IMG/VR virus record: IMGVR_UViG_2671180921_000033
Location: 1 to 19,746 of that record
Direction: 5' to 3' (one strand)
DNA length: 19,746 nucleotides
Source of the DNA: a virus
Lineage: Duplodnaviria; Heunggongvirae; Uroviricota; Caudoviricetes
Positions 384 to 19,746 of this stretch are shown here, in pieces. How positions within the stretch are numbered: the first letter of the stretch is position 1; every line of letters begins with the position of its first letter. The notes beneath the pieces are model-generated. The model was not told the DNA's origin. It searched no databases and worked only from the letters and a program-made list of their open reading frames with translations. A program made the position numbers and the translations under genes.

Positions 384-458
<75 letters not shown>

Positions 459-461
459 ATA

Positions 462-537
<76 letters not shown>

Positions 538-2099: not shown

Positions 2100-2260
2100 A
2101 ACGACCTCGCGTTTCGATAATTTTTACCTCACCACCGTCAGGTTCCAATCATCGGGTGGCGAACTGTGCAGGGTTGGAACTACCGGTCGAAACATCCGGC
2201 GCACCTTTCGGTGCCCCCACACAGTCCACCATAAATCGCGAATGTGACTGTGCTTAGCGC

Positions 2261-2283
2261 ATAAAAAAACCGCCAGCGCGGTT
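2261..2283 (-). terminator. tR'-like intrinsic terminator downstream of the late promoter
   Basis: Minus strand AACCGC-GCTG-GCGGTT followed by TTTTTTTA, about 75 nt downstream of the candidate PR' start. Confidence 0.6.
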
Positions 2284-2343
2284 ATGCACCGTTTCGATAT
2301 CCGGGGTTCCAATCCCGACGCCAGATTTTGCTGACGCGTGAGG

Positions 2344-2373
2344 AATATAGCCCCGGACAATGTGTCTGGTCAA
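2344..2373 (-). promoter_or_regulatory. PR'-like late promoter (candidate Q-utilisation region) immediately downstream of the Q gene
   Basis: Minus strand TTGACC - 17 nt - CTATAT starts 5 nt after the Q stop codon. The position is as in lambdoid PR'/qut/tR' modules. Confidence 0.45.
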
Positions 2374-3131: not shown

Positions 3132-4187
3132 TCATGCTTTCCACTTCAGGACACCCGAATTTCTCGCGTGCATTAAAAAACGAATCAGCAACAACAGCTG
3201 GCTGCCGTGTTTTTCTTCAAAATCTTTTACCCCGGCGTGCAGTTCGTTATGACATTTACGGCACAGCGGAATAACAAACAAATCATCAGCCTTTGTTCCC
3301 ATCCCTCCCAGTCCATGACCAATGATGTGATGCGGATCATCTGCCTGATTACCGCACGTCATGCATTTCTGCGTTTTTACCCAGCGCGTGTATACAGGCA
3401 TCTCTTCCCGTTGTGGTTTCTGGCGCTGGAGATACTGAGCCGGAGAATCCGGATCAACGGCAATGCTGACCACCGTCTTTTCCTGTGGCGGGTTTTGCTG
3501 GTGGGCGTGAGGCAGCGGCGCAAGATTTTTTGTGCGCTGCTTCAGTATGCTGGTGGCTGTCTGTTCTCCCGGTATGATGTCGCTTTCGCGGTACACCGAG
3601 CGGATTTTTTCCGCACGCAATCCCAGCGAACGACGCAATACCGCTTCCGGTAGCGCGTCCGCCACCTGATTGCGGACCGCCCACCAGGATAATTCAGCCA
3701 GAGATAATTCACGCTCCTGCGTACCGCTTATTGCGTGACCGATGACGTCAATCATCCATGCTGACAGGTTTTGATGAGCAAGTTGCTCGAGTGATTCGGC
3801 TGTCTGGTCACGCAACTGGTTGTCGCAGTGCCAGCACAACACCATCGCGCCGGTACCGTAACGATGTATGACGGTTTCGCTGTGGTGATAATCGCCGTGT
3901 GGCCACTGGCAGGATTTAATATGGCGCAACAGCCAGTCAGACAATGCGCCAGCGCCGCCAGCAGCACGAATCACCCGTGCGTTACTGAAAAACGGCAGCA
4001 ATGTTTTGTCTTCCACCAGTGGCTGGCGAACGGCGGGAACGACCCCGGACGGCAGATTACGCATGCTTTTCGGTTCAGGCTCCACCAGCACACGCCCCTG
4101 CATAAACAAAGGCATCGCATCAGGACCGGGCCTGAAAAGTACAATCCCCAGGCGGTGAGCAATTTCAGGAGTCACTAATACCCTCAC
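3132..4187 (-). CDS. DUF968-like prophage protein with a C-terminal HNH-like Cys/His motif
   Basis: 351 codons with a GTG start preceded by SD GGAGG. C-terminal CMTCGNQADDPHHIIGHGLGGMGTKADDLFVIPLCRKCHNELH. Size and position next to Q resemble YdfU-type prophage genes, as far as I recall. Confidence 0.55.
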   Translation of the reverse strand: MRVLVTPEIAHRLGIVLFRPGPDAMPLFMQGRVLVEPEPKSMRNLPSGVVPAVRQPLVEDKTLLPFFSNARVIRAAGGAGALSDWLLRHIKSCQWPHGDYHHSETVIHRYGTGAMVLCWHCDNQLRDQTAESLEQLAHQNLSAWMIDVIGHAISGTQERELSLAELSWWAVRNQVADALPEAVLRRSLGLRAEKIRSVYRESDIIPGEQTATSILKQRTKNLAPLPHAHQQNPPQEKTVVSIAVDPDSPAQYLQRQKPQREEMPVYTRWVKTQKCMTCGNQADDPHHIIGHGLGGMGTKADDLFVIPLCRKCHNELHAGVKDFEEKHGSQLLLLIRFLMHARNSGVLKWKA

Positions 4188-5692: not shown

Positions 5693-5848
5693 TTACTCCT
5701 CAGGTTCGTAAGCTGTGAAGACAGCGACCTCCGTCTGGCCGGTTCGGATTCGTACCTCGCAGAGGTCTTTCCTCGTTACCAGTGCCGTCACAATGACGGT
5801 TAAACAGATGACGATCAGGGCGATTAACATCGCCTTTTGCTGCTTCAT
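5693..5848 (-). CDS. hok: Hok/Gef-family type I toxin
   Basis: Translation MKQQKAMLIALIVICLTVIVTALVTRKDLCEVRIRTGQTEVAVFTAYEPEE (51 aa) has the Hok signature: TM helix then RK-LCE-R-G-EVAAF. SD AAGGAGAAG precedes the ATG. Confidence 0.8.
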   Translation of the reverse strand: MKQQKAMLIALIVICLTVIVTALVTRKDLCEVRIRTGQTEVAVFTAYEPEE

Positions 5849-5894
5849 AGCCTGCTTCTCCTTGCCTTTCGGCACGTAAGAGGCTAACATCCAT
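5700..5894 (-). CDS. mok-like overlapping reading frame (translational coupler for hok)
   Basis: 64-codon frame starting at ATG 5894 and overlapping hok almost entirely, as in hok/mok/sok loci. Start choice within the 107-codon ORF-track frame is uncertain. Confidence 0.35.
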   Translation of the reverse strand: MDVSLLRAERQGEAGYEAAKGDVNRPDRHLFNRHCDGTGNEERPLRGTNPNRPDGGRCLHSLRT

Positions 5895-5965
5895 ATGTCT
5901 AGCATGAAATTGGCCTAAGTTTAATATTAAACGTCTTGCGGGACGCGTAATGTTAACTGGGCTTT
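5895..5965 (+). ncRNA. Possible Sok-like antisense RNA (approximate coordinates)
   Basis: Candidate plus-strand promoter TTGCCT - 17 nt - TAACAT (5862..5890) facing into the hok/mok leader. Ends not defined; inferred from hok/sok architecture. Confidence 0.2.
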
Positions 5966-6245
5966 TCTCTATCTGCCGTTGGTGTTCATGCCCGAGGCAG
6001 ATAGCCTCAAGCACACGCAGCAATTTTACTTAACTATTTTTCCGAAAAATTAATTATTACTAATGCATAGTTTATAAATCACACGATGATATTATAAATC
6101 TAGTGTAAGGGAACATTTAAGTTAAGAATCACATTTTACTAGCCAAAAACATAAAACAGATCTCTTAATAATAAGCAGCTTTTATATAAAAACCACGATG
6201 TGTTTTCATAATAATATGCAGTACCAGCTACTCAGCAATATGAGG

Positions 6246-11477: not shown

Positions 11478-11903
11478 TCAATGCACCACCACGGCATTTC
11501 CTGCCGGACCACCGCGATTCATCTGGTCGAACAGAACGATCGCTGATGCAACGAACTCATCGATATCTTTCACCAGCCGATCCCGTCGCTCGACAATCTC
11601 CCGGTGATACTCCGAACTGTGACTGCGCATTCGGGCCACCAGCGGTGGCGGCATTGCCTTTTCGATCGCTGGTAACAACGCCTGAATTTTTTTAACCGCA
11701 TCAGGGGTGTCTTTCTCCACCCAGCGGAAAATCTTCTGAGTATTGCGAGCCAGGGCTTCTGGGTGTGAATCGTCGTACAGTTCCGGAAACGTCATTCCCA
11801 GCTCAAAATACGCTTTGGTAATCTCTGCAGCCGGAACTTTCTCGCCGTCCGGATGCGCCCAGGCATTCATCGCCATGCGGATGTGTTCATGCTTGATTTT
11901 CAT
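11478..11903 (-). CDS. YdaT-like prophage protein (CII-position gene)
   Basis: Begins MKIKHEHI and ends VVVH, as I recall for Rac YdaT. Start overlaps the upstream gene stop as ATGA. SD GGGAG. Confidence 0.5.
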   Translation of the reverse strand: MKIKHEHIRMAMNAWAHPDGEKVPAAEITKAYFELGMTFPELYDDSHPEALARNTQKIFRWVEKDTPDAVKKIQALLPAIEKAMPPPLVARMRSHSSEYHREIVERRDRLVKDIDEFVASAIVLFDQMNRGGPAGNAVVVH

Positions 11904-12160: not shown

Positions 12161-12196
12161 TTTGCCCTCCTCTAAAAACTATAAGCAAAGCCTACA

Positions 12197-12229
12197 ATAA
12201 AAAACTGTATACGATCAACAGTTTTTTAT
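12197..12229. promoter_or_regulatory. Operator-like inverted repeat in the divergent promoter region
   Basis: Perfect 12-bp arms ATAAAAAACTGT - 9 bp - ACAGTTTTTTAT between the Cro-like and repressor genes. Confidence 0.5.
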
Positions 12230-12268
12230 TGTGATGCTTTTAACAGTATTTACCTGTAAAATTGAATA

Positions 12269-12670
12269 ATGATGAGCGCCCTAGAAGTATCTATGTACAG
12301 AATCAGCAAGCTTCTTCAGGAAACTGGATGGAGCCAGGCTGAGCTTGCCCGTAGAATTGGTGTGACACAACAAACTGTTCAACAATGGGTCAGCGGTAAG
12401 GCTACACCTAAAGCCTCAAGTTTGGATAAACTGGTTGAGGTTTCAGGGCATCCATTGCATTGGTTTTTATTGCCTCCTGAAGAGGGTGAGCAAATTTTCA
12501 CCCCTGACACGATGAAAATTGGTCCTCGCCAACGCGAACTGCTCCAAGCTTTTAGTGCGTTTCCTGAGGAAGACCAAGAAAAAATGCTTCAAGAAATCAA
12601 AGACAAGAAAAAATCAATGGAAGAAACCATTGCTCGGTGGCTGGCTGCACAAAAAAGCCGCCGGGCGTGA
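12269..12670 (+). CDS. XRE-family HTH repressor (PaaR-like; candidate prophage repressor)
   Basis: HTH segment WSQAELARRIGVTQQTVQQWVSGK. First gene of an operon with the antitoxin and toxin below. Start could be the ATG at 12269 or at 12293. Confidence 0.7.
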   Translation: MMSALEVSMYRISKLLQETGWSQAELARRIGVTQQTVQQWVSGKATPKASSLDKLVEVSGHPLHWFLLPPEEGEQIFTPDTMKIGPRQRELLQAFSAFPEEDQEKMLQEIKDKKKSMEETIARWLAAQKSRRA

Positions 12671-12697: not shown

Positions 12698-12889
12698 ATG
12701 GGTACAGCCCTTTCTCCGATAGTTTCAGAATTCGAAACTACCGAACAAGAAAACAGTTACAACGAATGGTTGCGCACTAAAGTAACGTCAAGCCTTGCAG
12801 GCACTCGCCCCGCAATTCCACATGACGAGGTAATGGCTGAAATGGAAAATCTTATTGCTCAAATTGCTGTAACTAACAGGAGCGAGTAA
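12698..12889 (+). CDS. PaaA2-like antitoxin
   Basis: 63 aa, MGTALSPIVSEFETTEQENSYNEWLRTKVTSSLAGTRPAIPHDEV; strong SD AAGAGGAG. Resembles, from memory, the PaaA2 antitoxin of E. coli three-component ParE systems. Confidence 0.65.
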   Translation: MGTALSPIVSEFETTEQENSYNEWLRTKVTSSLAGTRPAIPHDEVMAEMENLIAQIAVTNRSE

Positions 12890-13176
12890 TGTTACCCATT
12901 TTATGGCTACCGTCTGCTCGCGATGATTTGCGTCAGATCATAACTTACATCGCCAAGGAGAACCCACCGGCAGCACGTAGACTAAAAATACGCATTGAAA
13001 CATCGGTATTACCTCTATCTGAGCATCCGTACTTATATCCACCAAGCGAACGGGTTTCTGGATTGAGAGAGATCGTGACCCACCCTAACTACATAATCCT
13101 GTACAGAGTAGCTGCTTCAAGCATTGAGATTGTAAGCGTGACACATTCTCGGCGACAATTTCCCTTCTCTATCTGA
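12889..13176 (+). CDS. ParE/RelE-family toxin
   Basis: 95 aa, MLPILWLPSARDDLRQIITYIAKENPPAARRL...REIVTHPNYIILYRV. Its start overlaps the antitoxin stop by 1 nt (TAATG). Confidence 0.8.
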   Translation: MLPILWLPSARDDLRQIITYIAKENPPAARRLKIRIETSVLPLSEHPYLYPPSERVSGLREIVTHPNYIILYRVAASSIEIVSVTHSRRQFPFSI

Positions 13177-13219: not shown

Positions 13220-13233
13220 GCCCAAAACAACAA

Positions 13234-13272
13234 TTAAAAACTGTTGACATAAAACAGTTTTTAATTGTAGAT
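13234..13272 (+). promoter_or_regulatory. Second operator-like inverted repeat overlapping a candidate PL-like promoter
   Basis: Perfect 11-bp arms TTAAAAACTGT - 9 bp - ACAGTTTTTAA. TTGACA at 13244..13249 lies inside the repeat, with a weak -10 (GTAGAT/TAGATT) 17-18 nt downstream. Confidence 0.5.
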
Positions 13273-14040: not shown

Positions 14041-14626
14041 TTTATCCTCCATTAAGGTTCTGGGTTAGAAATGGAGACCAACACGCTGCTACGTGTGGTC
14101 GTGCGCCGGACACGGATAAGAATCCGGCACTGACAGTTTACTGAAAAGATATATCCCTGAAAAATCAGGGCATAACACGAAAGCGCACGGCGAAGTCCTT
14201 CTCCCTTAGAGCTGTCGTTAAATTTAATTCGACCGTGCGCTTCCGGTTGTGGCAATCCGCGAAATGGCGCGGCGGTAAGTATGGCAGGGGTTATTTCTTT
14301 CTCCTGGTTAGGACGCCGGGTTGTCAGGTTGACCATACGCCTGAGTGACAACCCCGTCACAACATCTCCATGTTTGTTGGTTGGCACCGGGAACTTTGGC
14401 GGAATCAGTTTTTGCTTCGCTACTGCTCTTCCGCCCTTTTTTAAAGTGAATTTTGTGATGCGGTGAATGCGGCTCAGCGCACGCGGAACAGTTAAAAACA
14501 CAAGTGTTATGGGTGAATCATCCGGCGTTAATTGTTAACTGGTTAACGTCACCTGGAGGCACCAGGCACCGCATCAACAAAGTTCACTTCGGTGATGAAA
14601 GGTAGAGAAAATGTTGAATGTAGCTA

Positions 14627-14655
14627 TTGAAAACCTGAACGGGTGGAATTATAGT
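14627..14655 (+). promoter_or_regulatory. Second PR'-like promoter (homologous to the region downstream of Q)
   Basis: TTGAAA - 17 nt - TATAGT. The following roughly 250 bp align in patches with the reverse complement of 2100..2370. Confidence 0.4.
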
Positions 14656-14715
14656 GCATCCGCACCTCATAAAACGGGTGTCGGGCGTGGAAACCCGATG
14701 TTCACTAACGCGCAT

Positions 14716-14739
14716 AACCGCGCTCAGGCGGTTTTTTTA
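14716..14739 (+). terminator. tR'-like intrinsic terminator, second copy
   Basis: AACCGC-GCTCAG-GCGGTT followed by TTTTTTTA; near-identical to the minus-strand terminator at 2261..2283. Confidence 0.6.
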
Positions 14740-14907
14740 TGCGTAATGCACAGCCACATTCAGATTATGGTGGGACGTGCAGGGCAGCCGCAAGGCTGGC
14801 CGGGTTCGTTAGTGACCGGTATTTCCACCCCTGTACGTCTCACCACCCTTATGGTCGTGGAAAACCTTGGTGGTGAGTTAATCAAATTCACTAACGAGGC
14901 TGCTATC

Positions 14908-15462
14908 ATGGCTACTATCCCTACCCTTTCTCACCCTGACGTAACCATCAAAAATGGTCGCGCTGTCACTACGTCTGTTGCGGTTGCAGAGTTCTTCCGC
15001 AAAATGCACAAGGACGTTTTGCGCAAAATTGAAACGCTAGAATGCTCTGAAGATTTTAACGAGCGCAATTTTACGCCCGTTACCTACACCGACGCCAAAG
15101 GCGAAAAACGACCAATGTACCAAATCACCAAAAACGGCTTCGTTTTCCTGGTGATGGGTTTCACCGGCAAAAAAGCCGCCGCATTCAAAGAAGCCTACAT
15201 CGCTGAGTTCGACCGCATGGAGGCAGAGCTGCGTCAGAATAACACCCCGCCCGCTGACAAAATTATTCCGGGTGATGGTCGCACTCTCGTTGTTCACTTC
15301 GACGAACACGGCAACATCAGATTCACCGAAACCGTTCCTGACGGCGCTCTCGTCTGTACCCTGGATACCTTCCGCTTTTATCTGGAGAAACAGGGCTGGA
15401 CTCTTGTTAACCGTAGCGCAATTAAAAATATGACCGTCGAACAGTTGCTGGGTATTAAATAG
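14908..15462 (+). CDS. Rha-family phage regulatory protein (antirepressor)
   Basis: ATG at 14908 with SD GAGG. Translation MATIPTLSHPDVTIKNGRAVTTSVAVAEFFRKMHKDVLRKIETL...FNERNFTPVTY...ITKNGFVFLVMGFTGKKAAAFKEAYIAEF matches the Rha pattern. The ORF-track 5' extension to 14611 runs through a promoter and terminator and is rejected. Confidence 0.85.
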   Translation: MATIPTLSHPDVTIKNGRAVTTSVAVAEFFRKMHKDVLRKIETLECSEDFNERNFTPVTYTDAKGEKRPMYQITKNGFVFLVMGFTGKKAAAFKEAYIAEFDRMEAELRQNNTPPADKIIPGDGRTLVVHFDEHGNIRFTETVPDGALVCTLDTFRFYLEKQGWTLVNRSAIKNMTVEQLLGIK

Positions 15463-15871: not shown

Positions 15872-18325
15872 ATGAACGCTGATAATAAAGAAATTGCACT
15901 ATATTACGAAGCCAAAAATGACAAAGTCAGAAAACGCCTTGGAATTAAAGGCGGTTTTTGCTGGCGCACAGCAAAAAAATTATCGGTTGCAATATCACAC
16001 GGTATTGTCGCAATGGACGATGCCGGATTTGACGAAGAGGATTTTAAAAAACCCGTCCGCGTCCATTTACCCGTTGTGAATGACCTTCCTCCGGAAGGCG
16101 TGTTTGATACCGAATTCTGCAACCGATACGAAAAAGGCGGGGAAGATGGTATCACAATGGTACTTATCGCACCCTCGCCCTCTGTTCAGGACAAACCAGC
16201 CAGCACTGACAATACCAACGTCAACGGCGAAGACATGACTGAGATTGAGGACAATATGCTTCTGCCGGTTTCAGGTCAGATTCTGCCTGTTCGATGGCTG
16301 GCACAGCACGGCAGCGAAAAACCGGTCACGCACGTTTCACGGGACGAGCTGCGCGCATTACATAACGCACAGGAAGAAAAACTTCCCACTGTTACCGTGC
16401 TGGCCATCTCAAATAAAGCAGTGCAACTCGAACCGCTGGAGATTCGGGATTTGTACAAACTGGTGCGGGACACTGACAAGGTTTTTCCCGCCCCCGTAAA
16501 TTCAGACCTGGGGTTTATGACCGCCTTCATCGAAGCATACCTGGACGCTGACTACACCGATCGCGGTCTGCTTACAAAAGAGTGGATGAAGGGAAATCGT
16601 GTTTCGCGCATCAGCCGCACACCATCCGGCGCTAACGCTGGCGGCGGTATTCTTACCGATCGCGGCGAAGGTTTTGTACACGATAGTGCATCACTGGCGC
16701 GCGACGTAGCCACTGGCGTGCTGACCCGCTCAATGGACGTGGACATTTACAATCTTCATCCCGCGCACGCTAAACGCATTGAGGAAATTGTCGCTGAAAA
16801 TAAACCTCCCTTTTCTGTGTTTTTCAGCAAATTCATCACCATGCCTGGCGGGATGGACTATTCCCGCGCCATCGTGGTTGCCTCCGTGAAAGAAGCACCG
16901 GTTGGTATAGAGGCTATGCCCCACCGCGTCACCGAATATCTGAATAAAGTGCTGACCGAAACCGATCATGCCAACCCTGATCCGGAAATCGTGGATATTG
17001 CCTGCGGTCGCTCCTCCGCCCCGATGCCGCAGCGTGTAACAGAAGAAGAAAAACAGGATGATGAAGAAAAACCGCAACCATCTGGTGCAATGGCAGATGA
17101 ACAGGCAACGGCTGAAGCAATGGAGCCGGATACAACTGAACATCGCCAGAACACGCAATCGCTTGATGCTCAGGCACAGGTAAATTCTGTTGATGCGAAA
17201 TATCAGGAACTGCGGGCAGAACTCCATGAAGCCCGGAAAAACATTCCATCAAAAAATCCTGTCGATGCCGATAAATTGCTTGCTGCATCACGTGGTGAAT
17301 TTGTTGAGGGGATTAGCGACCCGAACGATCCGAAATGGGTGAAGGGGATTGCAACACACGATACTGTGAACCAGTGCCAGCAAGAATCGGAACAGAACGA
17401 CCAGAAAGCGGGACAAAACAGCCCGGATGCGCAACAAAACGAGCCAGAAGCGATACATCCGGAGCCGGAAGCGCAACACGTGCAGGAAAAACCATGTAAT
17501 GCTTGCGGGAAACATGGCGGCGGCAACTGCCCTGACTGTGGCACAGTGATGGGTGACGCAACACACCAGGAAATGTTCAATGAAGAGAATCAGCCTGAAG
17601 TTCAGGAAAATAATCCGGAGGAAATGGAAGGCTCTGCGCATCAGCACAAGGAGAACTCTGGTGGCAATCAGCATCATGCCAGCGATAGTGAAACTGGCGA
17701 GACGGCAAATCCCTTAATTAAGGTGACTGGTCATCATAAATATAAGTCCACCAGCAAAACGTGGTATCACCTGATGATCGACCTTGAGACGATGGGAACC
17801 AACACCAATGCGCCCATCGTGGTTATTGGGGCGGTTTTCTTCGACCCGCAGACAGGGAAAATCGGGCCGGTATTTTATATCGTTATCAGTCTGACTGACG
17901 CAATGAATACAGGAGCTGTTCCTGACGGTGGAACCATCGAATGGTGGCTGAAGCAGTCCAGTGAAGCCAGAGCTGCCATTTTAACAGACCAGGTGAAACT
18001 GAAAGATGCCCTTTTGCGCTTTCGGGAATTCGTCAATGAACACTCTGATGAAAAATTCGTTCAGGTGTGGGGGAATGGTGCAACGTTCGATAACTCAATT
18101 TTGCGCACCTCATACGAACGCCTGGGCATCCCCTGCCCGTGGCATTACAGCAACGATCGTGATGTACGCACGATCGTTGAGCTGGGGAAAACCATAGACT
18201 TCAATGCCAGAAGCGTAATTCCATTCGAAGGCGTACCCCACAATGCGCTGGATGACGCCCTTCACCAGGCAAAATACGTTACAGCCACTATTCAAAAACT
18301 GATCCCGAGTCAGGCTGATTTTTAA
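15872..18325 (+). CDS. RecE-like large protein whose C-terminal domain is a DEDDh 3'-5' exonuclease (817 aa)
   Basis: N-terminal two-thirds resemble, from memory, the Rac RecE N-terminal region (for example [50 protein letters not shown]). The last roughly 190 aa carry DEDDh motifs [20 protein letters not shown] and [12 protein letters not shown]. Confidence 0.7.
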
Positions 18326-18389
18326 TGTTCAACCCCGGTCGTCGCCCACCAGCTATAGTGGCGGCGACCATGATTAACAAACAACGCTC

Positions 18390-18638
18390 ATGGCAAGACT
18401 TATTCTGCTCACTGAGTGGGCAAAAGAGGAATTCGGCGATCCGATCCCTGCTCCGGGCACGTTAAGTAAATACGCTAAAGCCGGAATGATATTTCCTCTT
18501 CCCAAAAAAGTTGGAAGACGCTGGCGAGTGGATCCGCGAGCTCGCTTTGTCGGAATGGTAAACAAGCCGGAGGTGATCGCCACAGATCACCCAGCATTGA
18601 AGAGGATACTGGAAGATGGCGCGCCCGCGAAAATATAA
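18390..18638 (+). CDS. xis: Excisionase (lambda Xis-like)
   Basis: 82 aa, LLTEWAKEEFG...GMIFPLPKKVGRRWRVDPRARF parallels the lambda Xis core. 3' end overlaps the integrase start. Confidence 0.75.
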   Translation: MARLILLTEWAKEEFGDPIPAPGTLSKYAKAGMIFPLPKKVGRRWRVDPRARFVGMVNKPEVIATDHPALKRILEDGAPAKI

Positions 18639-19746
18639 AACTGATGTTCCGGGATTATCTCCGTATTTTGACAAAAGAAATAACAAAGTTTACTGGCGTT
18701 ACAAGCATCCCATAACAGGCAAAAATCACGGTCTCGGCAGTATTGAGCAGAAACTGGCAGAAACTATTGCAGCAGAAGCGAACAGCCGTCTTGCCAGGCA
18801 GCAAATGGAACAAATGCTCAGTCTGCAGGAGAAAATTATTAGAGATACCGGCGGTTCATCAACCGTTTCCATTTTTCTGAATAATTACAGAAAAATTCAA
18901 CAGGAAAGATATGAAAACGGAGAGATCAAACTCAACACGCTGAAACAAAAAGCGGCCCCTCTCAGGGTATTTGATGAACATTTTGGCACCAGACCGTTAG
19001 ATGCCATAACCGTAAAAGATGTGGTATCGGTGCTGGAAGAGTACAAGGCCAGAGGACATAACAGAATGGGACAAATTTTCAGGAAGGTATTGATCGATGT
19101 TTTCCGGGAGGCTCAACAAACGGGTGATGTCCCGCCAGGCTTTAACCCGGCTGAATCGGCAAAAAAACCGCAAGTGCGGATATCAAGACAGCGACTGACT
19201 TTTGATGAGTGGATGATGATTTATAACGCAGCGGAAAAGGATGGTTACTTTTTACAGCGCGGCATGCTGCTGGCACTGATGACGGGCCAGCGTCTTTCGG
19301 ATATTTGCAAAATGCAGTTTTCGGATATCCGGGATGGTTATCTTCATGTCGAACAGCAAAAAACAGGAGCCCGGATAGCCATTCCTCTGGCTCTGCGTTG
19401 CGACAAATTAAATCTTACCCTGGGTGACGTGGTGTCATCCTGTCGTGATTACATCCTTAGTCCGTGGTTATTGCACCATCATCACGCTAAGGGGATGGGT
19501 AAGCGCGGCGGGATGGTTAAACCAGCAACATTAACAGTCGCATTTAAAAAAGCCCGGGATTCTGTGGATTACAACTGGCGTGCTAATGGCACGCCACCCT
19601 CTTTCCATGAGCAAAGATCTTTATCAGAACGATTGTTCAGAGAACAGGGAATTGATACCAAAATTTTGCTGGGCCATTCGAATCAAAAAATGACCGATAT
19701 TTACAACGACGCACGCGGTAAAGAATGGAAAAAACTGGTTATTTGA
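18616..19746 (+). CDS. int: Tyrosine integrase (lambda Int family)
   Basis: 376 aa with catalytic-region motifs TGQRLSDI, FHEQRSLS and LLGHSNQKMTDIY. Stop codon at the window edge. Confidence 0.9.
   Translation: MARPRKYKTDVPGLSPYFDKRNNKVYWRYKHPITGKNHGLGSIEQKLAETIAAEANSRLARQQMEQMLSLQEKIIRDTGGSSTVSIFLNNYRKIQQERYENGEIKLNTLKQKAAPLRVFDEHFGTRPLDAITVKDVVSVLEEYKARGHNRMGQIFRKVLIDVFREAQQTGDVPPGFNPAESAKKPQVRISRQRLTFDEWMMIYNAAEKDGYFLQRGMLLALMTGQRLSDICKMQFSDIRDGYLHVEQQKTGARIAIPLALRCDKLNLTLGDVVSSCRDYILSPWLLHHHHAKGMGKRGGMVKPATLTVAFKKARDSVDYNWRANGTPPSFHEQRSLSERLFREQGIDTKILLGHSNQKMTDIYNDARGKEWKKLVI

What the first reader, a model, noticed from the sequence alone, without database searches (positions are those of the whole stretch)
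18326..18389. Hairpin without a U-tract between the recE-like gene and xis
GGTCGTCGCC...GGCGGCGACC can form a roughly 10-bp stem (one G-U pair) with a 13-nt loop just upstream of xis, with no following T-run. It could be an RNase processing or attenuation site controlling int/xis expression.
Basis: seen in the sequence. Interest (0 to 1): 0.2.

Follow-up and report, generated by a model that had tools for sequence, protein, structure and literature searches.

The report
Conserved RNA hairpin before prophage xis
The hairpin is real and is kept, through compensating mutations, in hundreds of related prophages just upstream of their excision genes, so it is probably a functional RNA signal for those genes, though what it does is untested.

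Summary
The hairpin is confirmed: arms 18337-18346 and 18360-18369, 10 bp with one G-U, 13-nt loop, -20.9 kcal/mol (z = -3.7), no T-run. It is the most stable contiguous-stem hairpin on the + strand of the window.

It is not a chance palindrome. In 268 related prophage loci (86 distinct sequences, 47 distinct hairpins) a GC-rich hairpin sits in the same short spacer before xis. It precedes three unrelated excisionase families and follows several different upstream genes.

Stem sequences differ widely but stay paired. Seven of 14 pairs show changes on both sides. Non-Watson-Crick pairs are almost all G-U on the + strand (39 cells against 1 A-C), which points to an RNA structure in the sense transcript.

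It fails the tests for an intrinsic terminator, an RNase III site, REP and every Rfam family, and I found no published description.

Best guess (0.4): a leader stem-loop that insulates the xis-int segment or blocks mRNA decay.

Main rival (0.25): every loop holds a TANNNT motif with a TTCA-type hexamer 19-20 nt upstream, whatever the hairpin's geometry. This suggests a combined hairpin-plus-weak-promoter cassette like the PeSLs of T4-type phages.

No transcript data were available, so the function is unproven.

The parts
15872..18325 (+). Upstream gene: 817-aa exonuclease (RecE N-terminal domain plus Rv2179c-like 3'-5' exonuclease domain); stop codon TAA at 18323-18325
   Evidence: ORF list. 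Pfam PF06630 at 1e-26 and PF16473 at 1e-67.
18326..18336 (+). Linker TGTTCAACCCC. It holds the conserved TTCAAC hexamer (18328-18333), which lies 20 nt upstream of the loop TATAGT. The mosaic breakpoint seen in E. coli genomes falls at about 18333-18335.
   Evidence: Many E. coli matches end at query position 234-236. An xTCAxx hexamer lies 19-20 nt upstream of TANNNT in all 47 distinct hairpins.
18337..18346 (+). 5' arm of the hairpin, GGTCGTCGCC
   Evidence: covariation.
18347..18359 (+). Loop CACCAGCTATAGT. It contains the -10-like TATAGT (18354-18359). The complement of Chi (GCTGGTGG on the - strand) lies at 18346-18353. Inner pairs A18348-U18359 and C18349-G18358 are possible.
18360..18369 (+). 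3' arm of the hairpin, GGCGGCGACC
   Evidence: (single copy in the window).
18368..18392 (+). Possible second small helix: CCAUGA (18368-18373) pairs with UCAUGG (18387-18392), covering the xis AUG and sharing 2 nt with the first hairpin. It is the positional counterpart of the covarying 'hairpin 2' of DUF4224-type xis leaders.
   Evidence: Predicted in the closest relative L001. Hairpin 2 with covariation in F-like leaders. No covariation is available for the window's own type.
18390..18638 (+). xis (82 aa, Pfam Exc PF07825)
18616..19746 (+). int (376 aa, lambda-type arm-binding domain plus tyrosine recombinase); ends at the window edge
   Evidence: The E. coli homologue lies next to ompW.

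Best explanation
The inverted repeat is a conserved stem-loop that forms in the sense (+ strand) RNA of the leftward early transcript, in the untranslated spacer between the exonuclease gene and xis. It is the first element of a structured leader of the xis-int cassette. In relatives it is followed directly by a second small hairpin that holds the xis ribosome-binding site or start codon.

The most likely mechanism is inferred, not shown. The hairpin would act after transcription as a stable barrier and insulator. It would stop 3'-to-5' exonucleases, or define processed ends, so that the stability and yield of the xis-int segment are uncoupled from the upstream early genes. It would also keep the xis start region folding the same way whatever gene lies upstream. 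It is not an intrinsic terminator.
For: Shown:
- The hairpin is stable and unusual for its composition and is the strongest on the + strand of the window.
- A hairpin occupies the same place in 268 loci, giving 86 distinct sequences and 47 distinct hairpins.
- On a structural alignment of 25 distinct sequences, 88% of cells pair against 79% in shuffles (0 of 500 shuffles reach it). Seven of 14 pairs change on both sides. Sliding the partner by 1-3 columns drops pairing to 21-63%.
- Stepwise series are seen, such as G-C, G-U, A-U and C-G, U-G, U-A.
- Non-Watson-Crick pairs are G-U on the + strand in 39 cells at 9 positions, against 1 A-C cell. A stem finder that scores only Watson-Crick pairs gives 12 G-U against 1 A-C. 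This fits + strand RNA and does not fit a DNA operator or the - strand.
- An untouched MAFFT alignment of 20 leaders of a diverged group gives two hairpins by RNAalifold, with 7 of 12 pairs changed on both sides and the Shine-Dalgarno sequence in the second loop.
- The hairpin precedes xis genes of three unrelated Pfam families and follows at least five different upstream genes.
- No variant has a U-tract.

Inferred: GC-rich intercistronic hairpins without U-tracts are the classical form of 3'-exonuclease barriers, for example REP in malE-malF. This is established knowledge, not tested here.
Against: No transcript ends, half-lives or expression data exist for this locus. A barrier model does not explain two things: why every loop keeps a TANNNT motif, and why a TTCA-type hexamer stays 19-20 nt upstream regardless of stem and loop length. 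Some xis genes of the same Pfam family have no such hairpin (e14, phage 21, Providencia PSTCR8lys, vB_EcoM-689R6), so it is not a general requirement of xis. The main structural alignment was built by hand to fit the structure, and the sequences are related, so the shuffle statistics overstate independence.
Confidence: 0.4

Rival explanations
1. A composite regulatory cassette like the PeSLs of T4-type phages. The stem-loop attenuates or insulates transcription arriving from upstream. A weak or activator-dependent sigma-70-type promoter is embedded in it: -35-like TTCAAC at 18328-18333, a 20-bp spacer, and -10-like TATAGT at 18354-18359 in the loop. This promoter would start xis-int transcripts inside the 3' arm. 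The conserved cassette would also serve as a linker for module exchange.
For: All 47 distinct hairpins have TANNNT in or at the loop and an xTCAxx hexamer 19-20 nt upstream. This spacing holds although stems vary from 8 to 14 bp, loops from 4 to 19 nt, and the gap before the stem from 2 to 10 nt. In L360, for example, 2 + 8 + 9 = 19. TCA is the only invariant block upstream in the diverged group. Given loop composition, the chance of TANNNT is 0.11-0.75 per lineage. Types D and E read TGnTATTCT, an extended -10 form. Mosaic breakpoints and hybrid hairpins lie at or within the element. PeSLs are described as promoter plus stem-loop between a stop codon and the next Shine-Dalgarno sequence, often with the stem-loop over the -10 box, and at mosaic junctions (PMC2839356). 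Lambda has a terminator-like hairpin directly before the xis promoter region.
Against: A 19-20-bp spacer and a 3/6-4/6 match in the -35 region make a very poor sigma-70 promoter, and the promoter scan finds none here. The motif pair was defined after seeing the data. A promoter in front of xis would give Xis together with Int, unlike lambda pI. The element is present once per prophage, not repeated like PeSLs. A promoter alone does not explain the G-U bias, so an RNA hairpin is still needed.
Confidence: 0.25
2. A U-tract-less transcription attenuator or pause hairpin. It would slow or partly stop RNA polymerase, possibly with Rho acting once the ribosome leaves at the exo stop. Read-through from genes expressed in the lysogen would then not reach xis-int, while induced early transcription gets through.
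For: The position fits: 11 nt after a stop codon and at the 5' boundary of genes whose leaky expression would cost the prophage. Lambda has a canonical hairpin plus T-run about 30 nt upstream of xis and another just after exo. An insulator terminator is known for Tn916 (PMC11658703, listed).
Against: None of the 47 variants has a U-tract, and loops of 8-13 nt are atypical for terminators. No antitermination system was identified in the window. There is no experimental support.
Confidence: 0.15
3. A DNA-level site: a palindromic operator or recombinase-type core (inverted repeats around an AT-rich spacer) bound by a dimeric protein such as a repressor, Int or Xis.
For: It is an inverted repeat of 9-14 bp around an 8-13-bp AT-rich centre. 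Symmetric change of both half-sites could mimic covariation. The loops of some relatives resemble lambda Xis-site sequences (recalled from memory, not tested).
Against: Mismatches are almost only G-T on the + strand (39:1 and 12:1), which a double-stranded DNA site would not favour. Arm sequences differ completely between lineages that have the same xis/int family, and are similar between lineages with different families.
Confidence: 0.05
4. An RNase III (or other double-strand-specific) processing site that separates the exo and xis-int messages.
For: It is a stable intercistronic hairpin in a phage early operon, and phage precedents exist (T7 intercistronic sites, lambda sib and N leader; established knowledge).
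Against: The stems are 9-14 bp, about one helical turn, which is shorter than classical E. coli RNase III substrates. No internal-loop architecture is conserved.
Confidence: 0.05
5. No function of its own: a neutral leftover or merely a microhomology patch that survives because recombination between phage modules happens there.
For: Breakpoints and hybrids occur at or within the hairpin. Some related xis genes lack it.
Against: Pairing is maintained through many independent substitutions with a strand-specific G-U bias. Unrelated stem sequences occupy the same position in diverged lineages.
Confidence: 0.05

Closest known systems
Intercistronic mRNA-stabilising stem-loops (e.g. REP/BIME hairpins in malE-malF, puf operon hairpins)
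   Same: A GC-rich hairpin without a U-tract, in the untranslated spacer inside a polycistronic operon, on the sense strand.
   Different: There is no REP consensus and only one copy in the window. The loop carries a conserved TANNNT motif, and the barrier function is untested.
PeSL (promoter-early stem-loop) cassettes of T4-type phages RB49/phi1 (PMC2839356)
   Same: It lies between a stop codon and the next gene's Shine-Dalgarno/ATG. The stem-loop (with G-T pairs) overlaps a -10-like box. It sits at mosaic junctions, and recombination occurs within the element.
   Different: This is a lambdoid prophage, not a T4-type phage. There is one copy per genome instead of about 50. The promoter-like motifs have a 19-20-bp spacer and a weak -35 region. 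No promoter or terminator activity has been shown.
Lambda leftward-operon terminators (the hairpin plus T-run about 30 nt upstream of xis next to pI, and tL3 after exo)
   Same: The position in the operon is the same: after the exonuclease gene and immediately before xis.
   Different: The lambda elements have canonical T-runs and short loops. This family never has a T-run. Identifying the lambda sites as named terminators rests on my memory plus the consensus scan.
Lambda sib retroregulator
   Same: An RNA hairpin that sets int/xis expression after transcription.
   Different: sib lies beyond attP, downstream of int, and is a long RNase III substrate. This hairpin is upstream of xis and only 10-14 bp.

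Membership tests
Intrinsic (Rho-independent) terminator | GC-rich hairpin | tested here: met
   10-bp stem with 8 G-C pairs, -19 to -21 kcal/mol.
Intrinsic (Rho-independent) terminator | Run of U directly after the stem | tested here: not met
   The 3' flank is AUGAUUAACAAAC. The consensus scan finds no terminator here. None of the 47 variants has a T-run.
Intrinsic (Rho-independent) terminator | Short loop (about 3-8 nt) | tested here: inconclusive
   The loop is 13 nt, or 8 nt if two inner pairs and a bulge form. Relatives have loops of 4-19 nt.
RNase III processing site | About two helical turns (around 20 bp) of double-stranded RNA, often with an internal loop | tested here: not met
   Stems are 9-14 bp in all variants.
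REP/BIME | Repeated copies with the REP consensus in intergenic regions | tested here: not met
   The arm motif occurs once in the window. The sequence does not resemble REP (reading against the consensus as I recall it).
Any Rfam family | Covariance-model score at or near the gathering threshold | tested here: not met
   There is no gathering-level hit at 18326-18389. The best sub-threshold hits score 10-16 bits against thresholds of 33-82 bits, with E-values above 2.
PeSL-like promoter plus stem-loop cassette | Sigma-70-type -35 and -10 boxes | tested here: inconclusive
   TTCAAC-N20-TATAGT is conserved as xTCAxx-N19-20-TANNNT in all 47 hairpins. However, the spacer lies outside the 16-18 range and the promoter scan finds nothing.
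PeSL-like promoter plus stem-loop cassette | Stem-loop overlapping the promoter, between a stop codon and the next Shine-Dalgarno/ATG, at mosaic junctions | tested here: met
   definition from PMC2839356.
PeSL-like promoter plus stem-loop cassette | Many copies per genome flanking variable genes | tested here: not met
   There is a single copy in the 19.7-kb window.
PeSL-like promoter plus stem-loop cassette | Demonstrated promoter and terminator activity | not testable with these tools
   Needs reporter fusions.
Lambda-type nut site (boxA/boxB) | 5-bp stem with a GNRA-like pentaloop, preceded by boxA, near the early promoter | tested here: not met
   The stem is 10 bp, the loop 8-13 nt, and the site lies at the distal end of the operon.
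Palindromic protein operator or recombinase core site | Symmetry required at the DNA level (both strands equivalent) | tested here: not met
   There is a strand-specific bias: G-T 39 cells against A-C 1, and 12 against 1 with a Watson-Crick-only finder.

The most novel reading that the evidence does not exclude
Lambdoid prophages of enterobacteria carry a portable boundary cassette in front of xis-int. In this reading, one short element combines a sense-strand RNA hairpin (insulator or attenuator for incoming transcripts) with a long-spacer promoter whose -10 sits in the hairpin loop. The same element would serve as the crossover point for swapping integration modules. It would be a lambdoid counterpart of the PeSL cassettes known only from T4-type phages.
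Probability: 0.2. Interest if true: 0.6.

Novelty: new member of a known kind. Interest (0 to 1): 0.4.

Why it matters
Xis and Int decide whether a prophage stays in or leaves the chromosome, and these prophages are very common: 4,023 of 5,426 complete E. coli genomes match the region, including Stx-phage-bearing strains. Outside lambda's pI/tI/sib scheme, control of xis-int is poorly understood. A conserved, covarying leader structure shared by three unrelated excisionase families gives a concrete, mutable target. It could be used to test how excision genes are insulated from neighbouring transcription. If the promoter-like motifs are real, it could also show how integration modules are exchanged between phages. 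If it is only a decay barrier, it is an ordinary though well-conserved element.

Tried and rejected
1. Small ORF. The ATG at 18325 overlapping the exo stop (46 aa) and the ATG at 18370 are not conserved. In type D the frame stops after 7 codons and in type B after 2.

2. Translational switch. I compared the unpaired probability of the xis Shine-Dalgarno/AUG region for the full leader against RNAs starting at the 3' arm or after the hairpin, in 8 representatives. There was no consistent change.

3. Long-range helix between the upstream UUCAGA and the Shine-Dalgarno region. It is possible in one lineage but not conserved.

4. Known RNA families. Rfam gave nothing at gathering or at E-values up to 10.

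5. K-12 relatives that would have public end-mapping data. e14 xisE has no hairpin. DLP12 exoD is a lambda-type Exo fragment with no hairpin.

6. EHEC Term-seq data. The paper holds no supplementary text here. A related preprint concerns a different sRNA.

7. Species-representative genomes. The scan returned a single distant locus.

8. A loose DNA pattern scan of viral contigs. It returned unrelated GC-rich phages and was not used.

9. More distant short exonuclease genes (mEp460, F1055, phiKp_30). They have only a tiny hairpin or none.

10. - strand function. The fold is weaker and the G-U pairs would become A-C mismatches.

11. The repeat finder did not list the hairpin, because the G-T pair breaks its exact seed.

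Full report
**Observation**

The window's 3' end reads exonuclease gene (15872-18325), a 64-nt spacer, xis (18390-18638), then int (18616-19746), all on the + strand. In the spacer, GGTCGTCGCC (18337-18346) pairs with GGCGGCGACC (18360-18369) across a 13-nt loop. The 10 pairs include one G-U. Two further inner pairs are possible, which would leave an 8-nt loop.

As + strand RNA the 64-nt stretch folds at -20.9 kcal/mol. Shuffles give -12.5 +/- 2.3, z = -3.72, and none of 200 shuffles does as well. The - strand is unremarkable, with z = -1.9. No T-run follows on either strand, and the terminator scan finds nothing.

In my own scan for contiguous stems of at least 9 bp, this is the most stable and most GC-rich hairpin on the + strand of the window.

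**Context**

The window is a lambdoid prophage. The region is 91-94% identical to prophages integrated next to ompW in E. coli, and 4,023 of 5,426 complete genomes have a match.

The upstream gene combines the RecE N-terminal Pfam domain with an Rv2179c-like DEDD 3'-5' exonuclease domain. The label 'recE-like' is therefore only half right. Xis belongs to Pfam Exc, and Int is lambda-type.

**Conservation**

I collected loci through the exonuclease C-terminal domain, through the window's Xis and through two DUF4224-type Xis queries. I added annotated E. coli and phage records.

Of these, 268 loci give 86 distinct xis-upstream sequences and 47 distinct hairpins. Right after the exonuclease stop and a shared TGTTCAACC, five homologous hairpin types occur:
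- Type A is the window's own.
- Type B is TGATCGCCGYC...GGCGGCGGTCA.
- Type C has a 14-bp stem.
- Type D is CGCCGGTTG...CAACCGGCG.
- Type E is CGCCAGTTG...CAACTGGCG.

A diverged group (F-like), with an exonuclease only 52-57% identical, has unrelated stems such as CCAGCCGGT/ACCGGCTGG or CCTGCCTG/CAGGCAGG at the same place.

The downstream xis genes belong to three unrelated Pfam families: Exc for types A and E, DUF4224 for B, C and F, and DUF1233 for D. Hairpin similarity cuts across these families. Types A, B and C resemble one another, as do D and E.

The hairpin also precedes xis where the upstream gene is a Cys-rich 140-aa protein or one of two other, unrelated proteins.

It is not universal. 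e14, phage 21, a Providencia phage and vB_EcoM-689R6 have Exc-type xis genes without it.

**Is the pairing selected, and on which strand?**

I built a structural alignment of 25 distinct A-E sequences by padding with N, and MAFFT returned it without gaps. On this alignment:
- 88% of cells form standard pairs, against 79% in shuffles (0 of 500 shuffles reach this).
- Seven of 14 pairs show changes on both sides.
- Sliding the 3' partner by 1-3 columns drops pairing to 21-63%.
- RNAalifold keeps a 7-bp core with 4 covarying pairs.

Intermediates of the classical kind are present. They include G-C, G-U, A-U at one pair and C-G, U-G, U-A at another.

The non-Watson-Crick pairs are G-U on the + strand in 39 cells at 9 pair positions, against a single A-C cell. 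A hairpin finder that scores only Watson-Crick pairs, and so has no bias towards G-U, still finds 12 G-U against 1 A-C among 36 distinct stems.

An untouched MAFFT alignment of 20 F-like leaders gives two adjacent hairpins by RNAalifold. Seven of the 12 pairs change on both sides. The second hairpin holds the Shine-Dalgarno sequence in its loop and ends at the ATG.

Three caveats apply. The A-E alignment was fitted by hand. The sequences are related. The number of truly independent events is perhaps 10-20. Even so, the evidence favours a structure in the sense-strand RNA over a double-stranded DNA site or a - strand RNA.

**What it is not**

- It is not an intrinsic terminator: no variant has a U-tract.
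- It is not a classical RNase III site: the stems are 9-14 bp.
- It is not REP: there is a single copy and no consensus.
- It is not a nut site.
- It is not any Rfam family.
- The small ORFs that overlap it are not conserved.
- A simple switch controlling access to the xis start is not supported.
- I found no description in the literature.

**An unexpected second layer**

Every one of the 47 hairpins carries TANNNT in or at the loop. Examples are TATAGT, TATATT, TATTCT, TATCTT, TAAATT and TAACCT. Each also has an xTCAxx hexamer (TTCAAC, TTCAGA, TTCACA, ATCACC) 19-20 nt upstream of it.

This spacing holds although stems range from 8 to 14 bp, loops from 4 to 19 nt, and the gap before the stem from 2 to 10 nt. 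TCA is the only invariant upstream block in the F-like alignment. Given loop composition, TANNNT is expected by chance in 11-75% of cases per lineage. The joint pattern is therefore suggestive but was defined after seeing the data.

It looks like a sigma-70 promoter with an over-long spacer and a weak -35 region, with the -10 box in the loop. The standard scan does not call it.

Mosaic breakpoints fall at the 5' base of the hairpin. Hybrids with an A-type loop and B-type arms exist.

This combination matches the published definition of PeSL cassettes of T4-type phages (PMC2839356). The shared features are a stem-loop over a -10 box, a position between a stop codon and the next ribosome-binding site, and a location at module junctions. 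PeSLs, however, are repeated about 50 times per genome and have proven activities.

Lambda itself has a hairpin plus T-run immediately before the xis promoter region, and another just after exo.

**Mechanism**

It is shown that the hairpin is a conserved, sense-strand, structure-selected element in the xis leader.

It is inferred that the hairpin most likely acts after transcription as a barrier and insulator between the early genes and the xis-int segment (confidence 0.4).

The main rival is a hairpin-plus-promoter composite (0.25). A U-less attenuator or pause site follows (0.15). A DNA site, an RNase III site, and no function are each at about 0.05.

Only end mapping and compensatory mutagenesis can decide between these.

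**Verdict**

It is a previously undescribed member of a familiar class, the intercistronic or leader stem-loops, so I score interest at 0.4. The upside is the PeSL-like reading (probability 0.2, interest 0.6 if true).

Noticed in passing
window, whole length; e.g. 153-160, 200-207, 688-695, 1559-1566, 4082-4089, 11636-11643, 17748-17755, 18346-18353 (- strand) and 1738-1745, 3497-3504, 3549-3556 (+ strand): Chi (GCTGGTGG) occurs 11 times against 0.55 expected from shuffles, 8 of them on the - strand. One copy overlaps the junction of the hairpin's 5' arm and loop. Related loci, including the F-like group, mEp460 and F1055, also have a - strand Chi at or near the 3' end of the exonuclease gene.
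   Followed up: partly
window 12193-12233 and 13230-13268: Two near-identical AT-rich perfect palindromes (ACAATWAAAAACTGT, 9-nt centre, then the inverse). The first lies just upstream of the CI-like HTH gene (12269-12670) and the second just downstream of the ParE-like gene (12889-13176). There are 4 half-sites against 0.2 expected. They could be operators or a bidirectional structure.
   Followed up: partly
window 14662-14850 (+) and 2152-2350 (-): Two copies of the isrK plus C4-antisense RNA pair, with a c4-a1b1 target match in the - strand copy (Rfam). The + strand copy overlaps the 5' part of the ORF for a Rha/Ash-type antirepressor-like protein (14611-15462). This looks like a P1/P7-style immunity module present twice in opposite orientations.
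   Followed up: no
window 5843-6016 (-): An Rfam sok antitoxin RNA match (95 bits), implying a hok/sok-type toxin-antitoxin locus inside the prophage.
   Followed up: no
window 384-537 (-): Two adjacent tRNA genes, tRNA-Gly(TCC) and tRNA-Thr(TGT), carried in the prophage region.
   Followed up: no
window 12889-13176 (+): A ParE-family toxin ORF (Pfam 3e-17) directly downstream of the CI-like repressor gene. I did not look for a partner antitoxin.
   Followed up: no
window 18151-18179: A perfect 11-bp inverted repeat (CAACGATCGTG ... CACGATCGTTG, 7-nt loop, about -15 kcal/mol) inside the exonuclease coding region, 150 nt before its stop.
   Followed up: no
window 15872-18325: The 'exonuclease VIII-like' gene is a fusion: a RecE N-terminal domain (PF06630, residues 56-189), a long acidic low-complexity middle, and a C-terminal Rv2179c-like 3'-5' exo(ribo)nuclease domain (PF16473, residues 633-805). 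The same C-terminal domain occurs as a stand-alone ~190-aa (549-573-nt) gene in mEp460, an ST64B-like Salmonella phage (F1055) and a Klebsiella phage.
   Followed up: partly
L313, L338, L340 and similar (viral contigs), hairpin region about 1440-1475: Hybrid hairpins combine the A-type loop (CACCAGCTATAGT) with B-type arms and a B-type xis. This indicates crossovers inside the hairpin itself.
   Followed up: partly
L160 (phage lambda) 1410-1429, - strand (record 29109-29128): Lambda has a canonical-looking hairpin plus T-run (AAGCCGCC TGAT GGCGGTTT TTTCTTGCG) about 30 nt upstream of xis. It abuts the TTGC-N6-TTGC repeat, which I take to be the CII site of pI (from memory). I could not confirm from the tools whether it is a named terminator.
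   Followed up: no
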